A stretch of DNA of 58,843 bases. Origin: a virus (lineage: Duplodnaviria > Caudoviricetes). The stretch covers positions 1 through 58,843 of the IMG/VR virus record IMGVR_UViG_3300036793_000038. One strand, given 5' to 3'. This document shows positions 16,107-51,528 of the stretch, one piece after another (within the stretch, counting starts at the first letter, position 1; every line of letters begins with the position of its first letter). The notes under the pieces are model-generated. The model was given only the letters and a program-made list of their open reading frames with translations. It was not told the DNA's origin and made no database searches. The position numbers and the translations under genes were made by a program.

Positions 16107-16844
16107 TGCCGCTTTGCCTCGATGATGCTGCTTGAACAGCGCCCTGCCCGCCGGGGTGGCCAGCATGATGTTCGTGGCCAGCCCATTCGACTGCCCCGCC
16201 GGCACGCCTTCCTTCAGCAGCGCGTCCCGCAATGTGGTCCAGGGATTGGCGCTCCCCATCCAACGCGCAGTTCCTTTCCCCTTTGTCCAGTAAAGCCAGA
16301 GTTTCGACCCCCGACCGATCTGCAAACGAGACAGGAACTGCGCCTCGGACAGGTCGGCCAGCTTGTCGCCGTCGTCGCCGCCGCCCAACCACTCGTGCAG
16401 GTCGGCCGCCGCGTCCGCCTCGTCCTCGTCCGCGTAGCCGCCGACGTCGACATACCCGCAGGTGCACGAGTAGGCCCAGCCGGTCGGCCGGTCCGTGCCC
16501 GCCACGTCCTCGGCAGTGAGTTGGTAGGTGAGCATGACGTGCTCGGGCTCACCGGACGCCTTCACGCCGCGACTGGCGATCTCGGCCAGCACCGCCTTGT
16601 GCGCCTTGGACTTGGCGCCCGGCTTGCCCAGCAGGCTCGCGCGACGGGCCAGTTCCTTGTCCAGGGCGTGCAGGTGGCCGGTGGACGTGGACTTCAGCGC
16701 GTCCCGAGGCTTGTCCTTGGACGCGAGGCTGTTGGCCGCGCTCTCCACGTTTGGGTGGCTCTTGTCGCCCACCTTGATCCAGCCGTGCACGTAGCCCTTC
16801 GGCCCGACGAACTCACCCGAGCCTGCCGGGCTCAGCCGAAAGGG
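16104..16844 (-). CDS. Head-morphogenesis-associated ORF, probably a -1 frameshift extension of the capsid protease
   Basis: Frame open from CCCTTTC (16844-16838): PFRLSPAGSGEFVGPKGYVHGWIKVG...KLWLYWTKGKG; in-frame GTG 16790 falls inside the GPKGYVHGW motif. Confidence 0.65.
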   Translation of the reverse strand, partial: PFRLSPAGSGEFVGPKGYVHGWIKVGDKSHPNVESAANSLASKDKPRDALKSTSTGHLHALDKELARRASLLGKPGAKSKAHKAVLAEIASRGVKASGEPEHVMLTYQLTAEDVAGTDRPTGWAYSCTCGYVDVGGYADEDEADAAADLHEWLGGGDDGDKLADLSEAQFLSRLQIGRGSKLWLYWTKGKGTARWMGSANPWTTLRDALLKEGVPAGQSNGLATNIMLATPAGRALFKQHHRGKAA

Positions 16845-28379: not shown

Positions 28380-28808
28380 CTCGGACTTTGCCCGCAGCAG
28401 AGAGCTGGCGTTCGGCGTCCGCGTCACGAACATCACGTGCACATCGTGCTGCCGCAGCCAGACCTCGGTGAACGACATCTGCTGGCAATACCGCTCCAGC
28501 GGTGCCCAGTCGTTGCCGACCACGATCACGCTCGGTGCCGCCCGGACGATCGCCTCCTTGCTGTCCTCGTCGCCGTAGTTGACGATCACGTGATCCACGT
28601 AGCGGATAGCCGAGACGACCTCGAACCGCTCCTCCAGTGACTGGACCGGCCGCCTGCCCTTGTACCGCTCGATGAACTCGTCCCGGTTGAGCGCCACCCA
28701 CACCCGGCCCGCCGGACCGGCAACCTGTCGCGCCACCCGCAGCAACGTGATGTGGCCCGGATGCAGCAGGTCGAACGTCGCCCCGACGTACACGCGCTGG
28801 CCCGTCAT
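28377..28808 (-). CDS. Cytidylyltransferase-like nucleotidyltransferase (TagD/RfaE-II family)
   Basis: GATFDLLHPGH (HxGH), YKGRRPV.SLEER, RYVD.VI, VVGNDW, RTP..SS. Confidence 0.9.
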   Translation of the reverse strand: MTGQRVYVGATFDLLHPGHITLLRVARQVAGPAGRVWVALNRDEFIERYKGRRPVQSLEERFEVVSAIRYVDHVIVNYGDEDSKEAIVRAAPSVIVVGNDWAPLERYCQQMSFTEVWLRQHDVHVMFVTRTPNASSLLRAKSE

Positions 28809-29599
28809 CGCCACCCCTTCAGCAGGTCAATGTCCGTCTCGATCCGGGACAGTTCCCGATACGCCGGGCCGCCGTCGATCAGCTCGCGCCGGTACGGCTG
28901 CTGGCAGTACTCCACCCAGGTCTGCTGGTCCACGCCCGGCCGCTGTGCCCGGTACGTGTCGTCGTCCTCGGCTTTGCCCACCAGCGGGTGCAGGTGCTCC
29001 AGGATGACGTCCGGCCGGTAGGTGAGCCGGTCAACGCCCTGGCCCCACGCCTTCCACGTGTTGTCCACGTACAGGTGTCCGAGTACGGGGGGCGCGATGT
29101 AGCGCAGCGCGCCGTAGACCGAGGTCGACATCATCACGGCCGTGGGCAGGCCCTCGCCGTGCACCCGGTCGTCGCCGTAGGCGAACGAGGGTGCGCCGAC
29201 GAGGCGACCGAACAGGGTGGTATCCCAGTCCTGCGTCCTCGGCCGGTGGTCGTCCCCCAGCACCGTGTACGCCAGTGCGTCCTCGGCCGACCCGGCGATC
29301 AGGTTGAGCGGGTGCACGAACCCCTTGTGGCCGCCGTACGGGGTACGGAACAGGCGCATCGTCCACGGCACCCGGTCAGTCGTGCGGTGCGCCAGCTTGA
29401 CGTAGTCGTCCAGCCTCGGGTCGTCCAGGCACACCGCGAAGATCAGACCAGTGCGCTCGATCGGATCCAGCCGTGCCGTCGTGTCGTTGAGGCAGTCGAT
29501 CAGCTCGGCCGCCTTCTCGGGTCGGCCCCGCGTCGGCGTGAGCACCACGTTCATCCGGTTGCGTGTGCTGAACACGCCGTTGGGCTGTGCCTCGTACAT
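28805..29599 (-). CDS. Glycosyltransferase (GT-A/GT2-like)
   Basis: Start ATG 29599; PTRGRP, GDDH.P.T..WD, HLYVDN, ILEHLHP..GKA..D..Y. Confidence 0.8.
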   Translation of the reverse strand: MYEAQPNGVFSTRNRMNVVLTPTRGRPEKAAELIDCLNDTTARLDPIERTGLIFAVCLDDPRLDDYVKLAHRTTDRVPWTMRLFRTPYGGHKGFVHPLNLIAGSAEDALAYTVLGDDHRPRTQDWDTTLFGRLVGAPSFAYGDDRVHGEGLPTAVMMSTSVYGALRYIAPPVLGHLYVDNTWKAWGQGVDRLTYRPDVILEHLHPLVGKAEDDDTYRAQRPGVDQQTWVEYCQQPYRRELIDGGPAYRELSRIETDIDLLKGWR

Positions 29600-30024
29600 C
29601 AGCAGGTCACCACGACGTCGGCGCCCCGCGACGTGTGCGTGGAGATCACCTTGCCGTCGTCCTTCACCTGGCAGGTGATCGAGCCGGTGCCCTTCGCCTG
29701 CGCGATGACAGACGGCGACCAGGACTGCATCGGGATCGAGTGGCTGGCCCACGGCAGCGTGACGTCCTGCTGCTCCTGGTTGCCCGACGAGTCAGCCGTG
29801 TAGTCCACGCTCGCCCCCGGCACCGAACCGGTCACGTCGTACACGATCGAGTGCGTCTCGGACAGGTCGGACACCGCCTTGGCGCCCGCCGCGCAGGTGG
29901 CGGCGGCGATGGCGATCACGACGGCGGTCAGGCCCAGCAGGATCCAACGCAGCACGTGCCGCTTGCGCTTGGGTGGTGGCGCGGCGGGGGGAGTGTAGAA
30001 GTTCCAATAGTCGTTGGCGGTCAT
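29599..30024 (-). CDS. MmpS-like membrane protein
   Basis: Start ATG 30024; TM then IVYDVTG, VTLPW, ITCQV..DG....VVTC. Confidence 0.7.
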   Translation of the reverse strand: MTANDYWNFYTPPAAPPPKRKRHVLRWILLGLTAVVIAIAAATCAAGAKAVSDLSETHSIVYDVTGSVPGASVDYTADSSGNQEQQDVTLPWASHSIPMQSWSPSVIAQAKGTGSITCQVKDDGKVISTHTSRGADVVVTC

Positions 30025-30987: not shown

Positions 30988-31593
30988 CTACCAGGCTTCA
31001 GGGAGCCCGGAAGTGTTGGCGGCGTGGTGGCGCCACAGCCAGGTCCGCATCGGCACGTGCACGATCTTCGCGCCCGCCTCGACACAGTCCAGGGTGAAGG
31101 CCCAGTCCTCGCCGCTGTTGAGCCGCTTGCCGTCCGATCCGGCCGGCACGTCGGTCGTGGCGTCATGGAACGGGTAGAGCTTGGCCAGCTCGGTGCGCAC
31201 CAGGATCGTGATCGTGGTCTGCGTCGGGTTGACCGGGTCGAACACGCGCCCGAAGTGGCCCAGCGGGTCATTCTCCGGGTGCAGGCCACCCCGGTCGTCC
31301 ATCACCGTGTAGTAGCTGAACACGTAGTCGGCGCCGGTCAGGTGCTGTGCGGCGGCCAGCGCCTCCAGGTGCCACGGCAGCATCATGTCGTCGTCGTCCA
31401 GGAACGCCGTCCAGTCCGACTCGACCTGCTCGACACCCTTCGCTCGGGTGGCCGCCGCGCCGTCGTGGTACTGGTCGCGGGATACCAGCAGGTTGACCGG
31501 CAACAGGCGTTGCCGCTGCACCGACGTGATGGCCTGCTCCAGCAGCTTGGATCGGGGCGCGATCGTCGGGATGACCACGGTGATGTCCAGCAT
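30988..31593 (-). CDS. Glycosyltransferase family 2
   Basis: Start ATG 31593; ITVVIPT, GAAATR, WTAFLDDDD, GEDW motifs. Confidence 0.9.
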   Translation of the reverse strand: MLDITVVIPTIAPRSKLLEQAITSVQRQRLLPVNLLVSRDQYHDGAAATRAKGVEQVESDWTAFLDDDDMMLPWHLEALAAAQHLTGADYVFSYYTVMDDRGGLHPENDPLGHFGRVFDPVNPTQTTITILVRTELAKLYPFHDATTDVPAGSDGKRLNSGEDWAFTLDCVEAGAKIVHVPMRTWLWRHHAANTSGLPEAW

Positions 31594-31766
31594 CAGTGCC
31601 TCCTGGACGGCTCGCCCGGATACGCCGGACCAGCCTTGACGTCGGCCCGGTGGATGCGCTCGTCGCACGCCCTCCGGCTGGTGCACACGTAGACGCCGTC
31701 CAGTGTGTGCCGGAACAGCCGCGTGCCGACCCGGCCGCAGCGCTTGCATACGCGGTGCGCCTTCAC
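31593..31766 (-). CDS. Small zinc-finger protein
   Basis: CKRCGR...VCTSRRAC from GTG. Confidence 0.55.
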   Translation of the reverse strand: MKAHRVCKRCGRVGTRLFRHTLDGVYVCTSRRACDERIHRADVKAGPAYPGEPSRRH

Positions 31767-33629: not shown

Positions 33630-33659
33630 CATCTTACGCCCCCGTCCGGGGTGCGTCTA
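33630..33659 (-). promoter_or_regulatory. Box promoter
   Basis: TAGACG-CACCCCGGACGGGGGCG-TAAGAT. Confidence 0.8.
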
Positions 33660-33749
33660 GTGGGTGGCCGGGATTCGAACCCGGAACCTCGGTTCATACC
33701 GGTCGCTGCCGGTGGCGCCTGCCGCGCTCTGCCTTTGAGCTACCACCCT
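33658..33749 (-). ncRNA. tRNA-like RNA with non-canonical anticodon arm
   Basis: Acceptor GGGTGG/CCACCC, D arm TA-GCTC-AAAGGCA-GAGC, T arm CCGGG-TTCGAAT-CCCGG; anticodon region about 35 nt instead of 17; 3' ACTA rather than ACCA. Confidence 0.75.
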
Positions 33750-33787
33750 CGGGCGGCCGGACCGTGTGGCCCGGCCGCCGGTACCGC

Positions 33788-35679: not shown

Positions 35680-37509
35680 CTATCCGCCCGGCCGGGTCGA
35701 GATGCGTGCCCCCATCGGTGCCCGCCGCACGGTGCGGTGTGCGGACGTCTCGATCGCCGTGCCGGTGCTCGCGCCCGTGCTCGTCGTCGCACGGGGCGCT
35801 GGCGTGAAGCTGCCCTTGCCCGAGCGGGACAGCTCCGTGATCAGGTGCACCCACGCGTCCATCCGGTCCGGGCTGTCCTGGCTCGGCAGCCACGTGCAGG
35901 CTTGGTGCTCCAGGGTCATGAAGTGGCCGACGTGGTGCACCAACAGTTCCTCGACCAGCGGTGACATGATCTCGGCCCGCAGGCGCTTGTTCACGATCGG
36001 GTTGACGATGCGGATCGGGAACCCTGTTTCGCGCGGCAGGGACAGGATCGTGGGCACCCACGGCCACATCTCGCGCAGCTGCTCGTCGCGGGCCAGCTTC
36101 TCGCTCGCGCTGTCCTCCTCGTCCACGAGCGCGCCCGCCACGGCCTCCACGACGGCCGCGACCGGGCGAACCGGCCACGGGTCGTCGGCCGCCGCGATGT
36201 GCGCCCACGCGCCGTCCAGCAGGCGGGCCTGCTTGCGCACCGCCTTCCACGTCTCCCGGTAGGTGCGCCGCAGGCCGGACAGCGAGCGCTCCCAGCCGAT
36301 CCAGCCCGACCCGCGCCGGCACGCCGCGTAGATCGCCTTGCGCATCCACTGGCCCGCCGTGTAGTGGCCCGAGTCGTCGGCCAGCAGGTAGTACTGACTG
36401 TCCGAGCCGATGCCGCCGGTCATGATGCCGGCCTCGTCGCCGGTCCCGGTGTTGTCGGCCGGGTCGACCATCGTGCCGATCGCCGCCATTTCGGGTGCCG
36501 CACTCACCCGTGCCGAGTCGAACCAGGCGCGCTTGAACGTGCCGCCCTCGGGCGCGGACGGGCTGCCCTGGTACAGGGCCTGCCACCAGCGGCTGCCGAT
36601 CTGCCGTGGCTTGGCTTCCCACTCCCTGATCGTGCGGGCTCGTGCGCTGATCAGCCACTCGCCCGGCGCTCGGCCCAGCGGGTCATTCTCCAGGGCCTGT
36701 GCCGGGATGTTGATCCGGCCGTACTCCGGTGACGGGGCCAGGTCATCCTCTTTGATCAGCCAGCCCGCCAGGTCATCCTCGTGCCAGCGGGTCTGGATGA
36801 TGATCACGATGGCGCGGCCGGACAGGCGTGCCGAGGCGACCGCCTGAAACCAGTCCTTGACACGCTGCCGGTACAGCGGCGAGTCGGCCTGCTTCGCGTC
36901 CTTCAACGGGTCGTCCACGATCAACACATCGGCAGGGCGGCCAGTGAAGGCGGACCCGACACCCACCGAGATCATGCCGCCGGCCCCACGCCGGCCAGGG
37001 ATGTCGGCCAGCACCCAGTTGGTGTTCATGGCCCGGTCAGGGTCGAGGGTGAGCCCCAGGACGTCGACCCGGTCCGGGTCCGGGCGTTGTCCTTTGTAGC
37101 CGCGTCCGTGCTGCTCGATCGCCTGCCGGACGGCCAGCGTGGACTGCGTGGCAATGCCCTGCTCGTACGAGGCGACCGCGATCCGCAGGCTCGGGTCGCG
37201 GATCAGCAGCCACAGCATCGCCACCTGGCTGATACGGGTCGTCTTGCCCTCCTGCGGGGGCGTGTTGATGATCCAGCGGCGCTGGAGACCCATCCACGCC
37301 TGCGCGACCGCCTCATCGAGCTTGTCCAGCAGCGGTGTCTGCACGGTGCCCCGGTTGAGGAACTGCGCGAGGTGGCCGGGCGTGGGGAACCGGTTGATCG
37401 CCTCGCGCCGCTTCAGCAGGGCGTCCACGCGCGGCTGGGCCATCTTGCGTTCGGCCGGGGTGAGTTCGGCCAGGACGGCGGCGACCTGTTCGCCGACGGT
37501 GCCGGTCAT
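35680..37509 (-). CDS. terL: Terminase large subunit
   Basis: PPQEGKT Walker A, LIVDDP Walker B, QTRWHEDDL, DPA/GDEAGI nuclease, SPDRMDA. Confidence 0.95.
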   Translation of the reverse strand: MTGTVGEQVAAVLAELTPAERKMAQPRVDALLKRREAINRFPTPGHLAQFLNRGTVQTPLLDKLDEAVAQAWMGLQRRWIINTPPQEGKTTRISQVAMLWLLIRDPSLRIAVASYEQGIATQSTLAVRQAIEQHGRGYKGQRPDPDRVDVLGLTLDPDRAMNTNWVLADIPGRRGAGGMISVGVGSAFTGRPADVLIVDDPLKDAKQADSPLYRQRVKDWFQAVASARLSGRAIVIIIQTRWHEDDLAGWLIKEDDLAPSPEYGRINIPAQALENDPLGRAPGEWLISARARTIREWEAKPRQIGSRWWQALYQGSPSAPEGGTFKRAWFDSARVSAAPEMAAIGTMVDPADNTGTGDEAGIMTGGIGSDSQYYLLADDSGHYTAGQWMRKAIYAACRRGSGWIGWERSLSGLRRTYRETWKAVRKQARLLDGAWAHIAAADDPWPVRPVAAVVEAVAGALVDEEDSASEKLARDEQLREMWPWVPTILSLPRETGFPIRIVNPIVNKRLRAEIMSPLVEELLVHHVGHFMTLEHQACTWLPSQDSPDRMDAWVHLITELSRSGKGSFTPAPRATTSTGASTGTAIETSAHRTVRRAPMGARISTRPGG

Positions 37510-38000
37510 TCACCGGCCGCCGGGTTGAACCGCAGGTCAACTTCCTGCGAGGGGATCTCGGTATACCGGCGCAGCGGCTCCAGCTTGGCGACGTCGGCAC
37601 CATCCACGATGTCCACCAGCTTGTCCATGGTCTCCTCGACCTTCTGCGCGCTCACCTCGACCTTCAGCGCCTCGGTCATGCCCAACTGGGACCGATACTC
37701 CTTGCCCACGGCGAGTGCGACTTCCACGGCTCGCGGGATGCCCTTCAGTGCGCCGGGCATGATCGCGGCCCGCAGCAGGCGCGTGTTCTCCAGCTCCTGT
37801 GCGTAGACCGCCTCGCGGATGTCGGCGTGCGAGGTCAACACCCGCTGCATCTCGCGTTGGAATAGCTTCTTGGCCTTGGCCTCAGTGATCTTCAGGGCAC
37901 GGGCGATCTTCGGGAGCGTGCCCCCGCTGGCCGACATCTCCATGATCTGGGACGCCAGCAGCTCGTTCGCCGCCCGTGCCGCTGCCGACTCCCTCGCCAT
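37506..38000 (-). CDS. terS: Terminase small subunit (HTH)
   Basis: G.TLPKIARALKIT HTH; overlaps terL start; -10 TACCAT six nt before ATG. Confidence 0.7.
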   Translation of the reverse strand: MARESAAARAANELLASQIMEMSASGGTLPKIARALKITEAKAKKLFQREMQRVLTSHADIREAVYAQELENTRLLRAAIMPGALKGIPRAVEVALAVGKEYRSQLGMTEALKVEVSAQKVEETMDKLVDIVDGADVAKLEPLRRYTEIPSQEVDLRFNPAAGE

Positions 38001-38005
38001 ACAGC

Positions 38006-38035
38006 CATGGTAACACCCCGTTACGGGGTGTCCAG
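38006..38035 (-). promoter_or_regulatory. Box promoter variant for terminase
   Basis: Perfect ACACCCCGT-A-ACGGGGTGT then TACCAT-N6-ATG; lacks TAGACA -35. Confidence 0.75.
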
Positions 38036-38036
38036 A

Positions 38037-38633
38037 TCACAGACCGGTCAGCTCACGCAGGTACTTCACGCCGTGCTGGAGATCGACGTCGTTGGCCAGG
38101 ACGTGCGCCTTGGCCTCGCCGTAGCCCATCGTCGCCACGTAGTCGTGGATCCGGGTGGCCCGCGTGAAGGCGCCCTTCACCCACTCGGGTTTCTGCGTGC
38201 TGCCCCGGTTCGTGCGCCGCCGCTCCGCCGACTCCGCAATCACCAGCACCAGATCGAGCCGGATGCCGGCGTCCAGGACGGCGTTGACGAACCGGCGCAC
38301 ACCCAACCGTGCGCCCTCGCCCAGGATCAGTGGGGTTTCCTCGCCCGCGTCACCGGACAGCAGCCACTGCTCGGCGGACACGATCGTGGACATGCTCATC
38401 GCGTCAGTGCCGGGGAACCCGATCGGGTGGCGGCCGACGCGGGCGCCCAGCTCCACGGCCACCGGGGTCGTCGTGCGCCAGCCCGGCGTGTCCATCGCGC
38501 CGGTCGGATACAGCTGCTCACGGCGCGGCTGGTCGCCCAGCAGTGCCCGGTCGTAGCCCAACGTCAGCGCGTCCATCAGGGCCGACTTGCCGACGCCGGG
38601 ACCGCCGACGAGGTACACACAACGGGTTCTCAT
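38037..38633 (-). CDS. P-loop kinase (predicted 5-hmdU DNA kinase role)
   Basis: Start ATG 38633; GGPGVGKS Walker A, FPGTDAMSM, GEGARL, RGSTQ...W motifs of modification-associated kinases. Confidence 0.78.
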   Translation of the reverse strand: MRTRCVYLVGGPGVGKSALMDALTLGYDRALLGDQPRREQLYPTGAMDTPGWRTTTPVAVELGARVGRHPIGFPGTDAMSMSTIVSAEQWLLSGDAGEETPLILGEGARLGVRRFVNAVLDAGIRLDLVLVIAESAERRRTNRGSTQKPEWVKGAFTRATRIHDYVATMGYGEAKAHVLANDVDLQHGVKYLRELTGL

Positions 38634-39436
38634 AGGTGCCTGCCCAGTCTCTCGGTGATGAACTGTTCCGCCAGTGCCGGCACCAGGGCGTACCCGGTGC
38701 GGTGGAACCCGGCGAACACGTGGTGAATGCCCTCGCTCGCGGAGTAGCTGCCCTTGCAGCGCTGGCCGGTGACGGCCCGCCAACCCGAGCGGGTCGTGAT
38801 CAGGTTGCGGTCGGCCGCGATGTCCAGCAGCTTCTGGGCCTGCTCGTTGGCCACGATGTCGGAGATGGCCGACGAGGACCCCAGCCGCACGCCCCGGCCG
38901 GTCGGCATCGGTGCGACCGCCAGTGTCTTGTACGGGGCGACGTGGTGCACGCGGGTACAGCGGCTACTGGCGGCGGCCACGGAGTCGTGGATCCAGGTCG
39001 TGCCGTAGGTGATGTGCTGGCCGTTGAGTGCGGCGCCCCCGGCCCACAGCACGGCGTCCGCCTTGACCGACTCGCCCTCGACCCACACGCCCTCCGGGAT
39101 GCGGGCGGCTATCGCGAAGCGCTGCGGGGAGCGCAGGGGCGAGAACGGGTCGATGACACCCCAGTCCTCGTCCCAGCGGCGATCCTTGGTCGGCGTGCGG
39201 TAGTTGGTGACGTAAGCGCCGGTTTGCACCCGCACACCCCACTGCCGGTACAGGTCCAGGCTGCGGTCGAACAGTCGCAGCTCGTCGCCCTTGTGGTAAG
39301 CGCGGCGCAGCAATGCCAGGGCGGCCATGGATTCGGCCCAGGCCGTGCCGATGTGCACGGGCGTCACGCCGCGCATCTCCAGGGCGTTCACCAGGCTCGA
39401 TCCGGCGATGCCACTGCCGACCACGATGATCTTCAT
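38630..39436 (-). CDS. FAD-dependent oxidoreductase (DAO/glycine-oxidase-like)
   Basis: Start ATG 39436; KIIVVGSGIAG Rossmann motif, G.R, GFHRTGYALVPALA C-terminal motif. Confidence 0.85.
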   Translation of the reverse strand: MKIIVVGSGIAGSSLVNALEMRGVTPVHIGTAWAESMAALALLRRAYHKGDELRLFDRSLDLYRQWGVRVQTGAYVTNYRTPTKDRRWDEDWGVIDPFSPLRSPQRFAIAARIPEGVWVEGESVKADAVLWAGGAALNGQHITYGTTWIHDSVAAASSRCTRVHHVAPYKTLAVAPMPTGRGVRLGSSSAISDIVANEQAQKLLDIAADRNLITTRSGWRAVTGQRCKGSYSASEGIHHVFAGFHRTGYALVPALAEQFITERLGRHL

Positions 39437-40338
39437 GACCGCTCCGCGATGATGCCCTTGTCGGCGTACCAGGACTTGCGGGGTTTCTGCACGCCCGTCC
39501 AGCCGTTCAGCTCGCCCAGGTACTCGTGCGGCAGGCACGCCTCGCGCGCCTCGAACGCCAGCGAAGTCAGGTCGCTCGTCAGGCCGCTGTCAACGGTCCG
39601 CAACTGGTCCTGCATCTGGTCAATGTCGTGCCCGAGGTAGTAGTGACCGTCCACGAGGCTGTGGAAGTCGCACAACGTGGTCTCCACGTAGCCGATGTCC
39701 GACTCACCGAGATAGCCCGCCAGGTCGCTCGTGACCTGATCGAGCAGGACGATCGTGGCCGGGTCGTTGCCCAGCGGCACCGGCCCCAGCACGTCGGCCA
39801 GGCCCTTGCGCGGGCCGGACGAGTGGGCGTGCGCCGCGTCGGCCACCGCGATGTCCAGCCCCAGCACCTTCTGCGCCATCTCGGCACTCTTGTACGCGGC
39901 CCAGCGCCCGTTGCCGGTGATCCGCATCAGCCGTTCATTGAGGTCGGCCCACGGCGTCTCGCTGTGGTCCGGGAGATTGGTCAGCAGTCTCCACGGGCCA
40001 CCGGCCCGCAGTGCCTCGCCGATCACGCTGTCGAGGTGTCGGCGCAGCTTGCCCGACCCCCGGTGGCCGCGTCGCTCGGTGGCGCACGGCAGCGACAGCA
40101 GCTCGCCCTCAAGCTCCGGCTCCTCGGCCGCCTTGTCCCACGGCAGTAGCTCGCTGGCCCGCAGGGCCGACCCCAGGTGGTAGTAGGCGACGTGCAGCAG
40201 CACCAGCCAGGCGAGGTCGTCGCACTCCATCGTCGTGCCCAGCTCCCACAACACCGGATAGACCGGGTCGACGTCCTGCGTGGTCACCTGCAACCGGTGC
40301 CAGCGGCGGTATTCCTCAGCCCTCGCCGTGTCCCTCAT
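39433..40338 (-). CDS. Amino acid:DNA transferase (aGPT-Pplase2/AADT family)
   Basis: DVDPVY, TERRGHR, GNGRWAAYK.AE, SSGPRKGL, ETTLCDFHS..G.YY.GHDID. Confidence 0.85.
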   Translation of the reverse strand: MRDTARAEEYRRWHRLQVTTQDVDPVYPVLWELGTTMECDDLAWLVLLHVAYYHLGSALRASELLPWDKAAEEPELEGELLSLPCATERRGHRGSGKLRRHLDSVIGEALRAGGPWRLLTNLPDHSETPWADLNERLMRITGNGRWAAYKSAEMAQKVLGLDIAVADAAHAHSSGPRKGLADVLGPVPLGNDPATIVLLDQVTSDLAGYLGESDIGYVETTLCDFHSLVDGHYYLGHDIDQMQDQLRTVDSGLTSDLTSLAFEAREACLPHEYLGELNGWTGVQKPRKSWYADKGIIAERS

Positions 40339-41179
40339 CAGTGCCTCTCTCGGTCAGTTCGCGGGCGTGTGCCCGTTCTCTCTCGGTCCGCATTTCCTTG
40401 GCGTACTGCTGTTCCATCGCGGTCGTGGCGCAGTCCCGCATCCCCCGCAGGGCGTAGAACACCACCGAGTACCGGTAGCCGTCCGGCGAGCTGCGGGTGA
40501 TGGGTGTGACGCCGTGGACGAGGCGGAACCCAGGGAACCAGGCACACCAGCCGTCCCGGCACTCCAGCACCACGTCGTACTCCGGGACGTGCAGGTAGCC
40601 GCCGCGCGTGCCCCGCCGCACCACGGGCATTGCCGACCACACGTCGTAGTTGCTGCTGTCCGTGTGGTAGGGCATCGACACGGTCTGGTTGATCACCCCG
40701 GACGTCCAGAACGTGTCCGGCGTCAGCCGCCAGTCCGGCTTGATCGCGGCCGACTCGTCGGCGCTCGCCGTCACCATCTCCGGTAGCCACTCCCCCAACA
40801 TGGCCTGGCAGCGGTCGGCGTAGGACTCCAACACGGAGTGCTGCTCCGGGAAGTCGCGCTTGACGGCCGTGGAGGCGCAGCCCTCGCGCTGGAAGACAGG
40901 CTTGCGGGGCGCGGTGCCGAACGTCGCCGACTTGGTGCGGTAGCCGCTGCCGGCCCGGTTGACGCCGTTGAACTGCGTGACGCCTCGGACGGCGCGGCGC
41001 AGATCGGCCACGCCCTCCGGTAGCGGGGCGTAGATGCAGATCGGTTCGTCGGTGTCGGCGTCCCGGACGAGGGTCGGCGTGACGACGTTCGCGCCCAGCT
41101 CCTGCACCCGCTCGCCGACGAACTTGGCCCGTGCCACCTCCCGGTCCATCTGCCTGCCCAGGAACAGCTCCTCGACCAC
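40316..41179 (-). CDS. TET/JBP-family 2OG-Fe(II) dioxygenase (predicted thymine hydroxylase)
   Basis: TFG..PR, WTSGVIN, YHTD (HxD), HGVTPI (distal H), YRYSVVFY (R). Confidence 0.85.
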   Translation of the reverse strand: MVEELFLGRQMDREVARAKFVGERVQELGANVVTPTLVRDADTDEPICIYAPLPEGVADLRRAVRGVTQFNGVNRAGSGYRTKSATFGTAPRKPVFQREGCASTAVKRDFPEQHSVLESYADRCQAMLGEWLPEMVTASADESAAIKPDWRLTPDTFWTSGVINQTVSMPYHTDSSNYDVWSAMPVVRRGTRGGYLHVPEYDVVLECRDGWCAWFPGFRLVHGVTPITRSSPDGYRYSVVFYALRGMRDCATTAMEQQYAKEMRTERERAHARELTERGTDEGHGEG

Positions 41180-41180
41180 G

Positions 41181-41855
41181 TCAGTCCCCCAATCCGTGCT
41201 CGTCGCAGTACGCCTGCGCCAGTGCGGCCACCGTGTCGGAGTAGTTGCTGGTCTCCAGGTGTTCCTGGATCCGGTCCAGCCTGCCGATCAGGTGCACGTA
41301 GCCCTGCCCGGACAGCATGAGCATGATCGAGCGGGTGTCGCTGGCGGCGTAGTCGCGGTGCTGCTCGTCCAGAGTGCGGGCCGGGATGTCCTCGGACACG
41401 GCGGTCATGGACGGCGGGATCGCCGGGTCGGTGTCCAGTTCCTCCAGGGCGGCCCGCAGGTCGTCCAGGTCGTTGCCGGTGTATCCCGCCATCGACAGGC
41501 TGCCGGCGCGCTCCAGGTCGGTGAGCAGCGACAGCAGCGATCCCTCGTCGTAGCCCAGGGACAGGTCGCGGGCGCGGTTGTCCCACGCCAGGATCTCCAG
41601 GGCGCGCTGGTCGGTGCAGTTGACCAGTTCGGCCCGGATGTGAGTCCAGCCCAGCTTGTCCCGAGCGGCCCGGTACACGGTGTTGCCGGCCAGGATGTGA
41701 CCGGTGGGCTGGTGCACGACGATCGTGCGGTACTGGCCCATCTCGCGCAGGCGTTGGGCGATCTCGTCGGCGTTGCCCCGGTTGGCGTTCGCCGGGTGCG
41801 GCGCGATCTCGCCAACCGGGACGTCGCGCGTCTCGATCACGGTGACGTGTTCCAT
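41181..41855 (-). CDS. ParB/Srx-like N-terminal domain protein
   Basis: PHPANANRG, GQYRTIVV, ILAGN..YRAA, DNR motif; heads the modification operon. Confidence 0.85.
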   Translation of the reverse strand: MEHVTVIETRDVPVGEIAPHPANANRGNADEIAQRLREMGQYRTIVVHQPTGHILAGNTVYRAARDKLGWTHIRAELVNCTDQRALEILAWDNRARDLSLGYDEGSLLSLLTDLERAGSLSMAGYTGNDLDDLRAALEELDTDPAIPPSMTAVSEDIPARTLDEQHRDYAASDTRSIMLMLSGQGYVHLIGRLDRIQEHLETSNYSDTVAALAQAYCDEHGLGD

Positions 41856-42205
41856 CAGGCCTGAGACGACCCGTCAGGGCAGTGGGCAGTGACGAGGCGG
41901 TTGGCCGGCACGATCAGGACCGTGTTGCCCTTCGCGTTGTACCACTCCCACACCGCGTGTTCGGGTGACCCGGACTGCATGTAGTCGTAGCTGGCCGCCT
42001 GCACCTCGAACTCGTTCCAGGTCGACTCCTCCAGCAGCACGGTCACGGACCAGGTGACGTCCCGGTCGTCGGCAGGCGCACCGGCCGGGTCGTCCACGAT
42101 CTGCTGCGACATCGGCATCCCGACCGTGTCGGATGTGCGGGCGTGCGGGTCGTGCGGCCTGGTCAGGTCGCCGTAGCCGAGTGGGCGTCCCACGGGTAGC
42201 TCCAT
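41855..42205 (-). CDS. Hypothetical protein
   Basis: Start ATG 42205; TGATG coupling on both sides. Confidence 0.55.
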   Translation of the reverse strand: MELPVGRPLGYGDLTRPHDPHARTSDTVGMPMSQQIVDDPAGAPADDRDVTWSVTVLLEESTWNEFEVQAASYDYMQSGSPEHAVWEWYNAKGNTVLIVPANRLVTAHCPDGSSQA

Positions 42206-42846
42206 CAGTCCAGCCTCTCTCGAATGATCAGGACCAGTCGAGGACTCGACCGGTTGTAGGCATCCTCGCTCTTGATCACGCAGCGCTGCTGCGTGGACAG
42301 CACGTACTTCCCGGAGTCGTCGGTGAACACGCCCTCTTTCACCAGGGCGTCCAGGGCGCACGACAGGGTGGGGGCGATGCCGTCGGCGTCCTGCCGGCGG
42401 TTGCTGCCCGGATACCACACCAGCTCGATCTCGCCCCGCTCCAGGTGTGGGATCTTTGCTGACCGGGCCAGCAGTCGCGTGTTCTGCACGATCTCCTCGC
42501 CCAGCTTGTACTGCACCATGTGGTGCATGGAGCGGATGCCGTTCTTGGTCAGCGGCACCCGCTGGTAGGGCAGGACGATCTCGAACTCCCGGCCGATCTT
42601 CGGGGCGCGCAGCGACTGGAGCAGCAGCATCTTTTCGGCCTCGACCTTGTCCAGGTCAATGTCCAGCCACATGGCGAGCAGCTGCTCGGGCGGGATCGAG
42701 GCGGGCGCGAACTGGTCGACGTCCTCGTGGTAGCGGCACAGGATCAGGCCGTTGTCCCGCAGGAAGTCGATGAAGTCAGCGCCCATGCGGGCCTGGTCCA
42801 TCACGGCGGATCGCTTGTCCAGCTCTGGGGTCGGTGGTGTGCTCAT
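42205..42846 (-). CDS. rusA: RusA-like Holliday junction resolvase with N-terminal extension
   Basis: PLTKN, RRQDADG.....ALDALV..GV..DDS. Confidence 0.75.
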   Translation of the reverse strand: MSTPPTPELDKRSAVMDQARMGADFIDFLRDNGLILCRYHEDVDQFAPASIPPEQLLAMWLDIDLDKVEAEKMLLLQSLRAPKIGREFEIVLPYQRVPLTKNGIRSMHHMVQYKLGEEIVQNTRLLARSAKIPHLERGEIELVWYPGSNRRQDADGIAPTLSCALDALVKEGVFTDDSGKYVLSTQQRCVIKSEDAYNRSSPRLVLIIRERLD

Positions 42847-50541: not shown

Positions 50542-51528
50542 TCACAGGGTGAGCGCCAATTCCCAGAGGCGCCACGTTTGGTCGATGGTGAAATGCCTAC
50601 GCGCGTAGTCGCGGGCCGCCTTGCCCATCTCCACGCGCAGTCCCTCGTCCTGCACGAGCTGCTGAATCCGCCAGGCCATCTCGTCCGGCCCGCTGACCAG
50701 GAACCCGGTCACGCCGTGATACACGACATCCCGATAGGCGGGGCAGTTCTGTGCCACGACCGGAATGCCCAGCGCGGCCATCTCCATTGCCTTGATGCCC
50801 GACTTGCTGTCGTTGAACACGTGCTGCGCCAACGGGATCGCGCAGATGTCGAAATCGATCTGTGACAGATACGAGTCCACGCCGGACACCCACGGCGTGT
50901 GCCGCAGCAGCGCGTCGGCGGGCTTGTGCTCCAGCCACCAGTCCGCCTGCCCACCGATCACGTGCACTTCGGTGTCGTGCCACCACCACGCGCCGTACTC
51001 CGCGATGTCACCGACGTGCGTATCGGACCCGGCCCAGCCGACCACCACCTGATCACGGCGCGGCCGGTCGTGCTCCAGCAGCCACGTCGGCACGGCGTTG
51101 GGGATGACGTACACGTTGTCATTCCACTGTCGCATCAGGTCGGCAAGCGGCTGAGTCGACACCGTGACCCGGTCGGCCAGGGCGATGCCCGTCATGATCG
51201 TCTCGCGGACGTCGGCCTGCTGGTACTTCTCGTACGCTGGTGACCAGTCCGGGACGCTGAGCAGGTCATCGTCCAGGTCCGCCACCAGCTTCGGGCCGAA
51301 CCCGGACGTGCGCCGGGACGCCCACGCCGACCAGTACAGCCGCACCTGCGGGTCCGCGATCCGCTGGCCGTACAGTACGTCCGCCATCTGCACGTCCGCC
51401 TCCTGGATGCGGTGCCGCCATGCGACGTCCACGCCCTCGTCGCGCAGCCGGGCCAGCGGCACCTGCACCCGGTAGTAGGCGCACCCGTCCGTGAGCGGGT
51501 CGGCAGCTGGCCAACCGAACAGCCTCAC
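50542..51528 (-). CDS. GT-B fold glycosyltransferase (GT4-like)
   Basis: GC.YYR..P, DLDDDL, AD.VTVST..L, VIPN, GWAGS.TH, FN.SKS.IK..E..A.GIPVVA, GVTGFL. Confidence 0.9.
   Translation of the reverse strand: MRLFGWPAADPLTDGCAYYRVQVPLARLRDEGVDVAWRHRIQEADVQMADVLYGQRIADPQVRLYWSAWASRRTSGFGPKLVADLDDDLLSVPDWSPAYEKYQQADVRETIMTGIALADRVTVSTQPLADLMRQWNDNVYVIPNAVPTWLLEHDRPRRDQVVVGWAGSDTHVGDIAEYGAWWWHDTEVHVIGGQADWWLEHKPADALLRHTPWVSGVDSYLSQIDFDICAIPLAQHVFNDSKSGIKAMEMAALGIPVVAQNCPAYRDVVYHGVTGFLVSGPDEMAWRIQQLVQDEGLRVEMGKAARDYARRHFTIDQTWRLWELALTL

What the first reader, a model, noticed from the sequence alone, without database searches (positions are those of the whole stretch)
38037..41855. Post-replicative thymidine hypermodification operon: ParB, TET/JBP, AADT, FAD oxidoreductase, kinase
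Seen: five tightly packed genes directly upstream of terminase; I found no dUMP hydroxymethylase, DNA polymerase, cytosine methylase, PLP enzyme, radical SAM enzyme or GNAT. Established: TET/JBP dioxygenases oxidise T to 5-hmU in DNA; in Pseudomonas/Salmonella phages (M6, ViI, PaMx11) a kinase phosphorylates hmU, AADT installs Gly or Ser, and in PaMx11 a flavin enzyme yields 5-aminomethyl-U that is then acetylated. Those phages obtain hmU from the nucleotide pool. Inference: here the whole route acts on host-replicated DNA (T to hmU to phospho-hmU to aminoacyl-T to free 5-aminomethyl-dU or a new base). TET+AADT+kinase clusters were predicted in actinophages, but I know of no characterised product for this FAD-containing version.
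Basis: partly seen in the sequence, partly recalled or inferred. Interest (0 to 1): 0.85.

Follow-up and report, generated by a model that had tools for sequence, protein, structure and literature searches.

The report
Post-replicative thymine hypermodification operon in actinophage
An uncultured soil phage carries five coupled genes that most likely convert thymine in already-copied DNA into 5-aminomethyluracil; every enzyme type has been described before and cultured phages carry the same gene layout, so this is a new example and not a new system.

Summary
On the minus strand, 41855-38037 encodes five coupled genes directly upstream of the terminase genes. They are a ParB-like protein, a TET/JBP-type dioxygenase (5mYOX), an amino acid:DNA transferase (AADT), a short flavoenzyme and a P-loop kinase.

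The window is a complete 58.8-kb virus record. Six-frame searches found no thymidylate-synthase-like enzyme, C5-methylase, GNAT, radical SAM enzyme, PALP-type PLP enzyme, or DNA polymerase A, B or IIIα.

The flavoenzyme is a full-length homologue of PaMx11 gp47 (NGTO), which turns Nα-glycinyl-thymidine into 5-aminomethyl-dU:
- hhalign probability is 96.7%.
- It is the best PDB hit by sequence profile and by fold.
- The wedge Tyr and the carboxylate-binding Arg are invariant.

The AADT keeps the catalytic Cys, the metal ligands and the glycine-binding residues of PaMx11 gp46. The dioxygenase keeps HxD...H...R.

Predicted route: T → 5hmU → 5-phosphomethyl-dU → Nα-GlyT → 5-NmdU. No acetyltransferase is present, so the free amine is the likely end product.

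It is not new in kind. ParB-dependent phage T-dioxygenases were published in 2026. The same five-gene layout occurs in Mycobacterium phages Reprobate and Phelemich, in Microbacterium phages, and in IMG/VR contigs. This scan has also reported such clusters on other DNA.

The parts
41181..41855 (-). ParB-like protein (224 aa), the predicted activator of the neighbouring thymine dioxygenase. It has an N-terminal ParB/Srx (CTPase-fold) domain, a disordered linker at about residues 145-158, and a helical C-terminal domain at 162-219. No HTH DNA-binding domain was detected.
   Evidence: phrog_723 E 6.5e-29. The profile of A3 hits Noc/ParB/Spo0J N-domains at E 1.5e-8 over positions 1-105 only. The AF2 model has mean pLDDT 84.7, with pLDDT <50 at 145-158. 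Top Foldseek hits are the pNOB8 ParB-N domain, Noc and CcParB/MxParB, aligned over about 130-150 columns.
40316..41179 (-). TET/JBP-family Fe(II)/2OG 5-methylpyrimidine dioxygenase (5mYOX, 287 aa, GTG start). Its predicted reaction is thymine to 5-hydroxymethyluracil in DNA.
   Evidence: PF12851 E 1.5e-3, 18.2 bits, below the cut-off. phrog_6059 E 5.3e-83. In alignment A2, H172, D174, H222 and R236 are invariant in 19 of 19 sequences. At E<=1 the A2 profile hits only TET2 (1.4e-5) and a Tet-like dioxygenase in the PDB. Relatives in the same alignment pass the Pfam cut-off: L026 at 102 bits and L018 at 63 bits.
39433..40338 (-). Amino acid:DNA transferase (AADT / aGPT-Pplase2, 301 aa), glycine type by its residues. 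Its predicted reaction is 5-phosphomethyl-dU plus glycine to Nα-glycinyl-thymidine.
   Evidence: PF18724 E 2.8e-19, 70.2 bits. Residues D24, W146, K150, E219, T220 and C223 match PaMx11 gp46 D24, W146, K150, E243, T244 and C247 (residue roles from PMC11472151, sections 14 and 22).
38630..39436 (-). Short FAD-dependent oxidase/lyase (268 aa), a homologue of PaMx11 gp47 (NGTO). Its predicted reaction is Nα-GlyT to 5-aminomethyl-dU plus glyoxylate.
   Evidence: hhalign of A1 against gp47 gives probability 96.7%, E 4.7e-10, over 246 columns. The best PDB profile hits are 8z2o/8z79 at E 4e-9, against 1.5e-5 for the next hit. The AF2 model has pLDDT 94.3. The top three Foldseek hits are gp47/NGTO, TMq 0.72-0.74. 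GxGxxG, Y169 and R226 are kept.
38037..38633 (-). P-loop kinase (198 aa; Walker A GGPGVGKS). Its predicted reaction is ATP-dependent phosphorylation of 5hmU in DNA.
   Evidence: PF18751 Ploopntkinase3, E 1.4e-25, 90.4 bits. hhalign of A4 against PaMx11 gp49 gives 93.9%, E 1.6e-7, over 110 columns. Against M6 gp54 it gives only 41.7%. The gene sits last in its cluster, as PaMx11 gp49 does.
41855..42205 (-). 116-aa ORF of unknown function. Its start overlaps the RusA stop and its stop overlaps the ParB start, each as TGATG. It belongs to the same coupled gene chain, but a role in modification is not shown.
   Evidence: Sequence read. Pfam gave no hit for the C-terminal 86 aa. tblastn gave no hit in the 30 related loci.
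42205..42846 (-). RusA-like Holliday junction resolvase, the first gene of the coupled chain. A near-copy of the genome's palindromic box with a -10-like TAAGCT lies just upstream.
   Evidence: phrog_34 E 1.1e-12. Sequence read.
38007..38034 (-). Promoter-like site (TGGACA, 16 nt, TACCAT, with extended TG) that encloses the palindrome CACCCCGTAACGGGGTG at 38014-38030. It lies between the kinase stop and the TerS start and marks the downstream end of the modification operon.
   Evidence: The palindrome pattern occurs 12 times in the window, against 0.65 expected.
35680..38000 (-). Terminase small subunit (37506-38000) and large subunit (35680-37509), immediately downstream.
   Evidence: TerL: phrog_38 E 5.7e-71. 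For TerS the position is the evidence; its only match is phrog_645, E 1.9e-10.

Best explanation
The five genes form a post-replicative thymidine hypermodification pathway. It acts on phage DNA that the host polymerase copied with ordinary T.

1. The TET/JBP-type dioxygenase, probably activated by its ParB-like neighbour, hydroxylates the methyl group of a subset of thymines to give 5-hydroxymethyluracil.
2. The P-loop kinase phosphorylates that hydroxyl to give 5-phosphomethyl-dU.
3. The AADT attacks C6 with Cys223, expels phosphate and adds the amine of glycine, giving Nα-glycinyl-thymidine.
4. The NGTO-like flavoenzyme oxidises the glycine C-N bond. Hydrolysis of the imine releases glyoxylate and leaves 5-aminomethyl-2'-deoxyuridine (5-NmdU).

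The genome has no acetyltransferase, so the free amine is the most likely final base.

What is shown here: gene identities, conserved catalytic residues, operon coupling, conserved synteny, and the absence of pool-level hmU synthesis and of a phage polymerase.

What is inferred: every chemical step, ParB dependence, glycine as the donor, the fraction and sequence context of modified T, and the biological role (most plausibly protection from restriction).
For: Gene calls and coupling.

5mYOX:
- HxD...H...R is invariant in 19 of 19 sequences.
- TET2 is the only significant PDB family.
- No C5-methylase is found in the genome.

ParB:
- It has the NBD, linker and CTD architecture described for 5mYOX-associated ParBs (PMC13229309, section 9).
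- The published ParB-dependent subclass is linked with P-loop kinases and AADTs (same paper, section 5).

AADT:
- The Pfam score is above the cut-off.
- D24, W146, K150, E219, T220 and C223 are identical to the two characterised glycine transferases, PaMx11 gp46 and M6 gp51, in 26 of 27 aligned rows. The exception is the serine transferase ViI gp247.

Flavoenzyme:
- It is a full-length profile match to PaMx11 gp47.
- It is the best PDB hit by profile and by fold.
- The wedge Tyr (gp47 Y180) and the carboxylate-binding Arg (gp47 R242) are kept in 28 of 28 rows. K268 becomes R. W51 stays aromatic (roles from PMC11472151, section 20).

Kinase: PF18751 and 93.9% hhalign probability to PaMx11 gp49.

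Gene order: AADT-FAD-kinase matches PaMx11 gp46-gp47-(gp48)-gp49.

Absences: no ThyA-like enzyme, GNAT, gp48 homologue or polymerase.

Comparative control: 11 of 30 related loci carry a GNAT between AADT and FAD, and all 11 are low-GC. None of the 19 high-GC loci does, and neither does the window. The missing acetyltransferase is therefore a lineage trait and not an assembly gap.
Against: - Nothing was measured. No nucleoside data exist for this phage, and five literature searches found none for any actinophage with this cluster.
- The window's own 5mYOX and ParB fall below the Pfam cut-offs.
- The kinase is in neither Pfam family that holds a characterised 5-hmdU kinase (PF18748, PF18747), and it resembles M6 gp54 only weakly.
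- gp47 residues Q182, K202 and R210 are not conserved.
- The alignment with ViI gp247 is uncertain (its catalytic Cys does not align), so the glycine-versus-serine argument is weak.
- A complete relative (60,437 bp with terminal repeats) keeps ParB, FAD and kinase but has neither 5mYOX nor AADT. The cassette can therefore decay, or those three genes may do something else.
- Three glycosyltransferase genes elsewhere in the genome could act on 5hmU or on the amine.
Confidence: 0.65

Rival explanations
1. The pathway starts the same way but ends with a different base. Either the AADT uses another amine donor, or 5-NmdU (or 5hmU) is further tailored by unlinked phage or host enzymes. Candidates are one of the three glycosyltransferases and the coupled 116-aa ORF.
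For: - AADTs are known to use glycine, serine and putrescine (Lee 2021, Table 1 passage).
- Related loci insert other enzymes between AADT and FAD: a GNAT in some, and an LMW-phosphatase-like protein plus an unknown 291-aa protein in others.
- GTs are the domains that most often co-occur with phage 5mYOXs, at 31% (PMC13229309, section 12).
- The window has GT genes at 50542-51528, 30988-31749 and 28805-29752.
Against: - The glycine-binding residues of gp46 and the carboxylate-binding Arg of gp47 are conserved.
- Any Nα-linked amino acid oxidised at Cα-N would still yield 5-NmdU.
- The GTs lie 6-9 kb or more from the operon. Two of them sit among head-morphogenesis-side genes.
- The 116-aa ORF is not conserved in the 30 related loci.
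Confidence: 0.2
2. The cassette marks only a few thymines at specific sites as an epigenetic-like signal, or it is partly decayed and inactive in this phage. In either case it would not provide bulk anti-restriction protection.
For: - Published ParB-dependent enzymes modify 1-35% of T in E. coli, with sequence preferences. The authors raise epigenetic-like roles (PMC13229309, sections 6 and 13).
- A complete relative lacks 5mYOX and AADT but keeps the other three genes.
Against: - All five window genes are intact, with catalytic residues conserved.
- The junctions are tightly coupled.
- Known thymidine hypermodifications block restriction enzymes (abstract of PMC8989533).
Confidence: 0.08
3. 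The dioxygenase oxidises 5-methylcytosine, installed by a host methylase, and not thymine. The downstream enzymes would then work on 5hmC.
For: - Phage 5mYOX clades A and B are 5mC dioxygenases (PMC8256090 abstract).
- The characterised T-dioxygenases also oxidise 5mC in vitro (PMC13229309 abstract).
Against: - No C5-methylase is present in the genome.
- ParB association, an AADT, a kinase and an NGTO homologue are all thymidine-pathway features (PMC13229309, section 5).
- In the solved complexes, gp46 and gp47 recognise a thymine-type base (PMC11472151, sections 14 and 20).
Confidence: 0.03
4. The ParB-like gene is an ordinary partition or nuclease protein that merely sits beside the modification genes.
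For: - Depositors of the GenBank records annotate such genes as 'ParB-like nuclease domain' or 'partition protein'.
- The canonical GERRxRA arginine box (motif recalled, from no call) reads GN...AA in this family.
Against: - It lacks the HTH DNA-binding domain.
- Its stop lies 1 nt from the 5mYOX start.
- ParB accompanies the cassette in 24 of 30 loci. One of the 6 misses (L016, Reprobate) has an annotated ParB-like gene that fell below the tblastn threshold.
- Experimental ParB dependence is published for this subclass (PMC13229309, section 6).
Confidence: 0.04

Closest known systems
Pseudomonas phage PaMx11 gp46-gp49 pathway, which makes 5-acetylaminomethyl-dU (Lee et al. 2021, PMC8989533; structures of gp46/PUGT and gp47/NGTO in Wen et al. 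2024, PMC11472151)
   Same: - Same gene order: AADT, flavin lyase, kinase.
- The AADT shares the catalytic Cys, the Glu/Thr metal site and the glycine-binding Asp/Trp/Lys.
- The flavoenzyme is a full-length homologue with the wedge Tyr and the carboxylate Arg.
- The kinase is distantly similar to gp49.
   Different: - PaMx11 makes 5hmU at the nucleotide pool with a thymidylate-synthase-like enzyme and has its own DNA polymerase. The window has neither and instead has ParB plus 5mYOX.
- PaMx11 acetylates 5-NmdU with gp48. The window has no GNAT and no gp48 homologue.
- Pairwise identity is low, about 20-31% over the aligned parts.
ParB-dependent phage thymine dioxygenases, 5mYOX clade C1, such as 5mYOX176/ParB176 (O'Toole et al., PNAS 2026, PMC13229309)
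   Same: - A 5mYOX is adjacent to a ParB homologue that has an NBD and a CTD but no DNA-binding domain.
- The cluster carries a P-loop kinase and an AADT and has no C5-methylase.
- The 5mYOX extends 37 residues beyond its last conserved Cys (C250), like the C-terminal extension described for this subclass.
   Different: - The sequences of the characterised enzymes are in supplements I could not open, so direct identity to 5mYOX176 is unknown.
- The main text of that paper never mentions a flavoenzyme: 0 occurrences of FAD, flavin or oxidoreductase.
- The paper studies only the oxidation step, not the final base.
Gene clusters of cultured actinophages: Mycobacterium phages Reprobate and Phelemich genes 1-5, and Microbacterium phages MO526 and Kozie
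   Same: - Reprobate has the same order next to the terminase: ParB, 5mYOX, AADT, FAD enzyme, kinase.
- MO526 has 5mYOX, AADT, FAD enzyme and a gene in the kinase position, which I did not test, next to its terminase; the gene upstream of its 5mYOX was not tested either.
- Identities to Reprobate: FAD enzyme 42.5%, AADT 47.3%.
- The MO526 FAD enzyme matches profile A1 at 96.5% probability.
   Different: - These are different phage lineages. The window's TerL is at most 35.5% identical to that of any cultured phage.
- No megablast match was found for window bases 1-25000.
- Their products are also unmeasured, as far as my searches show.
Gordonia phages of the Wooper type and Rhodococcus phage Tonitrus, the 'five-gene THM system' (PMC11955845)
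   Same: ParB, Tet-like protein, aGPT-Pplase2 and 5-hmU DNA kinase lie at the genome end beside the terminase. The AADT is about 50% identical.
   Different: The fifth gene follows the kinase. It is a 290-aa Rossmann-like protein that does not match the NGTO-like family: hhalign probability 5.9%. The end product is therefore probably different.
tRNA wobble-uridine pathway cmnm5U to nm5U by the FAD domain of MnmC (recalled; Lee 2021's discussion, passage seen, draws the parallel between Nα-GlyT and cmnm5U)
   Same: The chemical logic is the same: a glycine-derived carboxymethylaminomethyl group on C5 of uracil is trimmed by a flavoenzyme to aminomethyl.
   Different: The substrate is RNA, not DNA. 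No homology beyond the DAO/GR2 fold was tested here.

Membership tests
TET/JBP 5-methylpyrimidine dioxygenase (5mYOX; Pfam PF12851) | Homology to the TET/JBP oxygenase domain | tested here: met
   The window protein alone is below the Pfam cut-off: 18.2 bits against 34.9, and 19.5 bits in the six-frame search. The family profile A2 hits TET2 at E 1.4e-5 as the only significant PDB family. Aligned relatives pass the cut-off at 102 and 63 bits. phrog_6059 scores E 5.3e-83.
TET/JBP 5-methylpyrimidine dioxygenase (5mYOX; Pfam PF12851) | Fe(II) triad HxD...H and the 2-oxoglutarate-binding Arg | tested here: met
   H172, D174, H222 and R236 are invariant in 19 of 19 sequences of A2. A2 holds 18 of the 24 loci that have a 5mYOX. 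Left out: L007 (partial), L014 (a stop inside my coordinates), and L024, L027, L031 and L033 (near-duplicates).
ParB-dependent T-dioxygenase subclass (clade C1, PMC13229309) | Adjacent ParB homologue with a nucleotide-binding domain and a C-terminal domain but no DNA-binding domain | tested here: met
   The ParB stop lies 1 nt from the 5mYOX start. The profile hits only N-domains of Noc/ParB/Spo0J. The AF2 model shows NBD, disordered linker (145-158) and helical CTD. Foldseek aligns only about 130-150 columns to ParB-N structures.
ParB-dependent T-dioxygenase subclass (clade C1, PMC13229309) | C-terminal extension beyond the last Cys conserved across subclasses | tested here: inconclusive
   Thirty-seven residues follow the invariant C250. 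That C250 corresponds to C280 of 5mYOX176 is my inference, because the reference sequences are in closed supplements.
ParB-dependent T-dioxygenase subclass (clade C1, PMC13229309) | Oxidises T (not only 5mC), and activity on dsDNA depends on ParB | not testable with these tools
   This needs expression and nucleoside analysis. Indirect support: no C5-methylase is found in the genome.
Amino acid:DNA transferase (AADT / aGPT-Pplase clade 2; PF18724) | Profile match above the curated cut-off | tested here: met
   70.2 bits against a cut-off of 26.2, E 2.8e-19, covering profile positions 2-228 of 232.
Amino acid:DNA transferase (AADT / aGPT-Pplase clade 2; PF18724) | Catalytic Cys (gp46 C247), metal ligands (E243, T244) and glycine-binding residues (D24, W146, K150) | tested here: met
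   The window has C223, E219, T220, D24, W146 and K150. These are identical in 26 of 27 aligned rows; ViI gp247 differs. That alignment holds 21 of the 24 loci with an AADT; L027, L031 and L032 were left out as near-duplicates.
Amino acid:DNA transferase (AADT / aGPT-Pplase clade 2; PF18724) | Glycine as the donor substrate | not testable with these tools
   Inferred from the residues above and from the NGTO-like partner. The alignment with the serine enzyme ViI gp247 is uncertain.
Nα-GlyT oxidase / flavin-dependent lyase (PaMx11 gp47, NGTO; PDB 8z2o, 8z79) | Full-length homology and the same compact two-domain fold (about 270-290 aa, against about 370 aa for glycine oxidases) | tested here: met
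   hhalign gives 96.7% over 246 columns. The PDB profile search gives E 4e-9 over positions 2-197. Foldseek ranks 1-3 are gp47, with TMq 0.72-0.74 and TMt 0.68-0.70. Glycine and sarcosine oxidases follow with TMt of about 0.5.
Nα-GlyT oxidase / flavin-dependent lyase (PaMx11 gp47, NGTO; PDB 8z2o, 8z79) | FAD-binding GxGxxG, wedge Tyr180, carboxylate-binding Arg242, base-cage Trp51 and Lys268 | tested here: met
   The window has G7, G9 and G12. Y169 and R226 are kept in 28 of 28 rows. R246 replaces K268. Y47 replaces W51 and is aromatic in all rows. That alignment holds 25 of the 30 loci; L027, L031 and L032 (near-duplicates) and L030 and L035 (fragments) were left out.
Nα-GlyT oxidase / flavin-dependent lyase (PaMx11 gp47, NGTO; PDB 8z2o, 8z79) | Base-recognising Gln182 and DNA-backbone residues Lys202 and Arg210 | tested here: not met
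   The window has T171, S192 and A200 at these positions. These are DNA-contact residues, not catalytic ones. I therefore call the protein an NGTO-like homologue and do not claim the same DNA-binding mode.
Characterised 5-hmdU DNA kinases (PF18748 HMUDK_HMUD1, e.g. M6 gp54; PF18747 HMUD2, e.g. ViI gp243) | Membership of one of those Pfam families | tested here: not met
   The window kinase matches PF18751 Ploopntkinase3 and matches neither PF18748 nor PF18747. hhalign to M6 gp54 gives 41.7% and to PaMx11 gp49 93.9%. It probably works like a 5-hmdU DNA kinase, but it is not filed in those families.
PaMx11-type 5-AcNmdU pathway | Acetyltransferase (gp48) and dUMP hydroxymethylase | tested here: not met
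   No match at E<=10 for PF00583, PaMx11 gp48 or PF00303 anywhere in the genome.

The most novel reading that the evidence does not exclude
The virion DNA of this phage, and of cultured relatives with the same acetyltransferase-free cassette, carries free 5-aminomethyl-2'-deoxyuridine as its final base. In the papers my searches found, this primary amine is described only as an intermediate of the PaMx11 pathway. Here it would be made entirely after replication from ordinary thymine, at sites chosen by a ParB-guided dioxygenase. That would be the first natural genome ending at 5-NmdU. It would also be a complete thymine-to-amine route that needs no phage polymerase and no change to the nucleotide pool.
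Probability: 0.45. Interest if true: 0.5.

Novelty: new member of a known kind. Interest (0 to 1): 0.35.

Why it matters
This is a clean, complete-genome example of a thymine hypermodification route that needs only five proteins and ordinary DNA as its substrate.

Comparison of 30 related loci gives a simple and testable rule. Cassettes with a GNAT between the transferase and the flavoenzyme (all low-GC) should end at acetylaminomethyl-dU. Those without one (all high-GC, actinophage-like, including this window) should end at the free amine.

Cultured phages on laboratory hosts carry the same cassette: Reprobate and Phelemich on Mycobacterium smegmatis, and the Microbacterium phage Kozie. One nucleoside mass-spectrometry experiment could therefore settle the product.

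A compact, polymerase-independent way to install a primary amine on thymine in DNA would also be useful as an enzymatic labelling tool.

The finding does not reveal a new kind of system.

Tried and rejected
- Complex prediction of 5mYOX (A2) with ParB (A3) returned 'no answer' (scores 0.51, 0.02, 0.02). It is neither support nor evidence against binding.
- The look-up of sequencing runs listed one DNA holder, a soil metagenome kept as contigs that may be the source sample. No RNA holder was listed. Contigs cannot show base modification.
- Megablast of window 1-25000 against phages found no match.
- tblastn of the flavoenzyme against phages found only 4 records, which are 2 phages. PaMx11 gp47 was reached only by profile and fold comparison.
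- BLASTP of window proteins against PaMx11 gp46, gp47 and gp49 gave only weak local matches.
- Gordonia phage Wooper gp5 was tested as a possible divergent NGTO and rejected at 5.9% probability.
- ORF 28805-29752 has a PHROG match labelled 'DNA methyltransferase', so I tested the idea that it methylates the amine. Atlas features and structure put it with GT-A glycosyltransferases, so I dropped the idea.
- Iyer et al. 2013 (NAR 41:7635) could not be read. I cite it only as recalled and as seen in reference lists.
- Supplements of PMC13229309 are closed. They hold the 5mYOX and ParB sequences and the gene-neighbourhood datasets, and they may already show this FAD-containing layout.
- The search of earlier findings by sequence found nothing.

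Full report
WHAT IS THERE. The window is a whole IMG/VR virus record of 58,843 bp that CheckV rates 100% complete. Its G+C is about 68%, and almost all genes lie on the minus strand.
- a ParB-like protein, 41181-41855, 224 aa
- a TET/JBP-type dioxygenase, 40316-41179, 287 aa, GTG start
- an amino acid:DNA transferase, 39433-40338, 301 aa
- a short flavoenzyme, 38630-39436, 268 aa
- a P-loop kinase, 38037-38633, 198 aa

For the last two genes the true starts are internal ATGs of the longer listed ORFs. Each forms an ATGA overlap with the stop of the preceding gene.

Pfam is decisive for the transferase (PF18724, 70.2 bits) and the kinase (PF18751, 90.4 bits). It is sub-threshold for ParB_N (16.6 bits), Tet_JBP (18.2 bits) and DAO (20.4 bits, N-terminus only). 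PHROGs matches all five strongly. Two of its family labels are misleading: 'queuine tRNA-ribosyltransferase' for the dioxygenase and 'terminase small subunit' for the kinase.

OPERON. The stop of a RusA-like resolvase (42205-42846) overlaps the start of a 116-aa ORF (41855-42205) as TGATG. The stop of that ORF overlaps the ParB start in the same way. Just upstream of RusA lies a near-copy of a palindromic box with a -10-like TAAGCT. Between the kinase stop and the TerS start lies a promoter-like site (TGGACA, 16 nt, TACCAT) that encloses a perfect copy of the box, CACCCC-N5-GGGGTG. No other sigma-70-like site was found on the minus strand within 38037-42846. The five genes therefore look like the distal part of one transcription unit that ends just before the separately controlled terminase genes.

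WHAT THE GENOME LACKS. Six-frame searches of the whole record gave no match at E<=10 for:
- thymidylate synthase / dUMP hydroxymethylase (PF00303)
- C5 DNA methylase (PF00145)
- GNAT (PF00583)
- the PaMx11 acetyltransferase gp48
- radical SAM (PF04055)
- PALP-type PLP enzymes (PF00291)
- DNA polymerase A, B and IIIα

In each family search the control genomes gave matches. The gp48 protein search has no such control. PHROG and Pfam scans of 30 other large ORFs found an Erf-like annealing protein, SSB, a replication initiator, a DnaC-like loader, RusA, structural genes and three glycosyltransferases. They found no polymerase and no nucleotide-metabolism enzyme. The phage must therefore be copied by the host polymerase with ordinary dTTP, and any thymine modification must be made on the polymer.

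THE FLAVOENZYME IS AN NGTO HOMOLOGUE. A database search found 49 relatives besides the protein itself, all 231-292 aa. Their alignment (A1) matches PaMx11 gp47 over essentially its full length: hhalign probability 96.7%, E 4.7e-10, 246 columns. Searched against all PDB sequences, the A1 profile ranks the two gp47 entries (8z2o, 8z79, 'flavin-dependent lyase') first at E 4e-9 over positions 2-197. The next hits, at 1.5e-5, match only the Rossmann N-terminus.

An AlphaFold model (pLDDT 94.3, pTM 0.91) has gp47/NGTO as its top three Foldseek hits out of 1,845, with TMq 0.72-0.74 and TMt 0.68-0.70. The longer glycine and sarcosine oxidases follow with TMt of about 0.5.

Wen et al. 2024 (PMC11472151; sections 14, 17, 20 and 22 read) assign roles to gp47 residues. 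In a 28-row alignment:
- The wedge Tyr180 is Tyr in all rows (window Y169).
- Arg242, proposed to hold the glycine carboxylate, is Arg in all rows (R226).
- Lys268 is Arg in the 27 other rows (R246).
- Trp51 is Trp or Tyr in all rows (Y47).
- Gln182, Lys202 and Arg210 are not conserved.

I therefore call it an NGTO-like Nα-glycinyl-thymidine oxidase/lyase whose DNA contacts may differ.

THE OTHER FOUR PROTEINS.
- Transferase. Aligned with the two characterised glycine transferases (PaMx11 gp46, M6 gp51), the serine transferase ViI gp247 and 23 relatives, the window protein keeps the nucleophile Cys (C223), the metal ligands (E219, T220) and the three glycine-contacting residues (D24, W146, K150). 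So does every row except ViI gp247. The ViI alignment is unreliable, because its Cys does not align.
- Dioxygenase. H172, D174, H222 and R236 are invariant in 19 of 19 sequences. The family profile finds only TET2 (1.4e-5) and a Tet-like dioxygenase in the PDB. Relatives in the same alignment pass the Pfam cut-off. Thirty-seven residues follow the last invariant Cys.
- ParB-like protein. The profile matches only the N-terminal domains of Noc, ParB and Spo0J. The model shows that domain, a disordered linker (145-158) and a helical C-terminal domain. Foldseek aligns only about 130-150 columns to ParB-N structures. This is the architecture O'Toole et al. 2026 describe for ParBs that activate their neighbouring T-dioxygenase (PMC13229309, section 9).
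- Kinase. It belongs to PF18751. M6 gp54 is PF18748, ViI gp243 is PF18747, and PaMx11 gp49 matches only generic P-loop families. The window family resembles gp49 at 93.9% hhalign probability and M6 gp54 at 41.7%. Its assignment as a 5hmU DNA kinase rests mainly on context.

MECHANISM. Taken with the published biochemistry, the gene set predicts this route:
T -> 5hmU (ParB + 5mYOX) -> 5-phosphomethyl-dU (kinase) -> Nα-glycinyl-thymidine (AADT) -> 5-aminomethyl-dU + glyoxylate (flavoenzyme).
The published work I drew on is Lee 2021, passages; Wen 2024, reaction scheme; and O'Toole 2026, sections 5, 6 and 13. All chemistry here is inferred.

The prediction of 5-NmdU holds up even if the donor is not glycine, because oxidising the Cα-N bond of any Nα-linked amino acid leaves the same amine. 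It is not robust to further tailoring by unlinked genes.

COMPARATIVE EVIDENCE. A scan of IMG/VR with A1 returned 30 loci. By tblastn with window, relative and PaMx11 proteins:
- AADT in 24 of 30, 5mYOX in 24, ParB in 24, kinase in 27. Most misses lie at contig ends.
- A PaMx11-type thymidylate-synthase-like gene or gp48 in 0 of 30.

Three layouts appear:
(i) High-GC loci (0.67-0.70) with the window's order followed by terminase: L006-L009, L011, L012 and L016, which is phage Reprobate. L015 and L021 have the kinase before the FAD enzyme.
(ii) Loci with ParB-AADT-...-FAD-kinase-5mYOX. Four of them insert an unknown 291-aa protein and an LMW-phosphatase-like protein (PF01451, E 8e-6) between AADT and FAD.
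(iii) Eleven low-GC loci (0.32-0.36) with a GNAT (PF00583, E 3e-11) between AADT and FAD.

GNAT presence is 11 of 30, all in the low-GC group. The acetyltransferase-free state of the window is therefore a property of its lineage.

Among cultured phages, Reprobate and Phelemich carry the same five genes, and Microbacterium MO526 and Kozie carry at least the 5mYOX-AADT-FAD core. Gordonia phages and Rhodococcus phage Tonitrus carry a different fifth gene (PMC11955845, passages).

EVIDENCE THAT CUTS THE OTHER WAY. A complete relative (60,437 bp with terminal repeats; flavoenzyme 46% and TerL 51% identical) has ParB directly followed by the flavoenzyme and the kinase. It has no AADT or 5mYOX anywhere in its genome, and L013 shows the same layout. 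Either the cassette decays in some lineages, or these three genes have a use without the other two. The window's own 5mYOX and ParB scores are below the Pfam thresholds, the kinase family is uncharacterised, and nothing has been measured.

NOVELTY. All five enzyme types and their linkage are in print:
- TET_JBP-linked AADT/kinase contigs (Lee 2021, passage)
- ParB-dependent T-dioxygenases linked with kinases and AADTs (O'Toole 2026)
- the flavin lyase and its structure (Lee 2021; Wen 2024)

The exact five-gene layout sits in GenBank phages deposited years ago. This scan has also already reported such clusters on other DNA, one of them with the same five components.

What I did not find in print is a measured product for any TET-started, FAD-containing, acetyltransferase-free cassette, or 5-NmdU as a final base. 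That statement rests on five searches and on passages. Closed supplements may hold more.

I rate the finding a new member of a known kind, with moderate-to-low interest and a sharp, cheap experimental test.

Noticed in passing
L010 (5366-7364) and L013 (1874-3872); whole record G001: A complete 60,437-bp relative with terminal repeats has ParB directly followed by the NGTO-like flavoenzyme and the kinase. It has no AADT and no 5mYOX anywhere in its genome. This is either a natural deletion variant or a sign that these three genes have another use.
   Followed up: partly
L023-L029 and L031-L034 (for example L026:3939-8279): Eleven low-GC (0.32-0.36) viral contigs carry ParB-AADT-GNAT-FAD-kinase-5mYOX. 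This is a TET-started counterpart of the PaMx11 acetylaminomethyl-dU pathway. The GNAT is absent from all 19 high-GC loci.
   Followed up: partly
L018:4728-6004 (also L019, L020, L022): Four loci insert an unknown 291-aa protein and a low-molecular-weight phosphatase-like protein (PF01451, E 8e-6) between AADT and the flavoenzyme. They also have a long 5mYOX of 400-500 aa with a low-complexity tail. This may be a different end product.
   Followed up: no
L001:4380-5252 (Gordonia phage Wooper gene 5): In Gordonia phages the fifth gene of the cassette follows the kinase. It is a 290-aa protein with a Rossmann-like N-terminus that does not match the NGTO-like family (hhalign probability 5.9%). 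Its function and the resulting base are unknown.
   Followed up: partly
window 50542-51528, 30988-31749, 28805-29752 (all minus strand): There are three glycosyltransferase genes. One is a GT-B (Glycos_transf_1) beside SSB in the replication region, with nearest relatives in Streptomyces phages at 34% identity. The other two are GT-A-like genes between the terminase and portal genes. The target is unknown: virion proteins, cell wall or DNA.
   Followed up: partly
window 41855-42205 (minus strand): A 116-aa ORF is translationally coupled to both RusA and ParB through TGATG overlaps. It has no Pfam match, and it has no homologue in the 30 related loci.
   Followed up: partly
window, 12 sites (for example 15439, 16084, 25752, 26980, 28357, 35144, 38014, 50001): The palindrome CACCCC-N5-GGGGTG occurs 12 times with up to 1 mismatch, against 0.65 expected. 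Several copies lie between genes, and one sits inside a promoter-like site just before TerS.
   Followed up: partly
window 33659-33750 (minus strand): ARAGORN calls a 92-nt tRNA-Gly (anticodon gcc), which is unusually long.
   Followed up: no
L005:14218-14787 (PaMx11 gp49), L036:6739-7302 (M6 gp54), L002:4617-5156 (Reprobate gp5): Public records annotate the characterised or predicted 5-hmdU DNA kinases as 'terminase small subunit'. RefSeq labels the actinophage 5mYOX 'queuine tRNA-ribosyltransferase'. PHROGs has inherited both of these misleading labels.
   Followed up: yes
window 16832-19228 (minus strand): A 798-aa protein combines head-maturation-protease or portal-like PHROG matches in its C-terminal part with an N-terminal stretch (residues 98-207) that matches an 'RNA ligase' PHROG. 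Earlier notes on this genome propose a 2H phosphoesterase fusion there.
   Followed up: no
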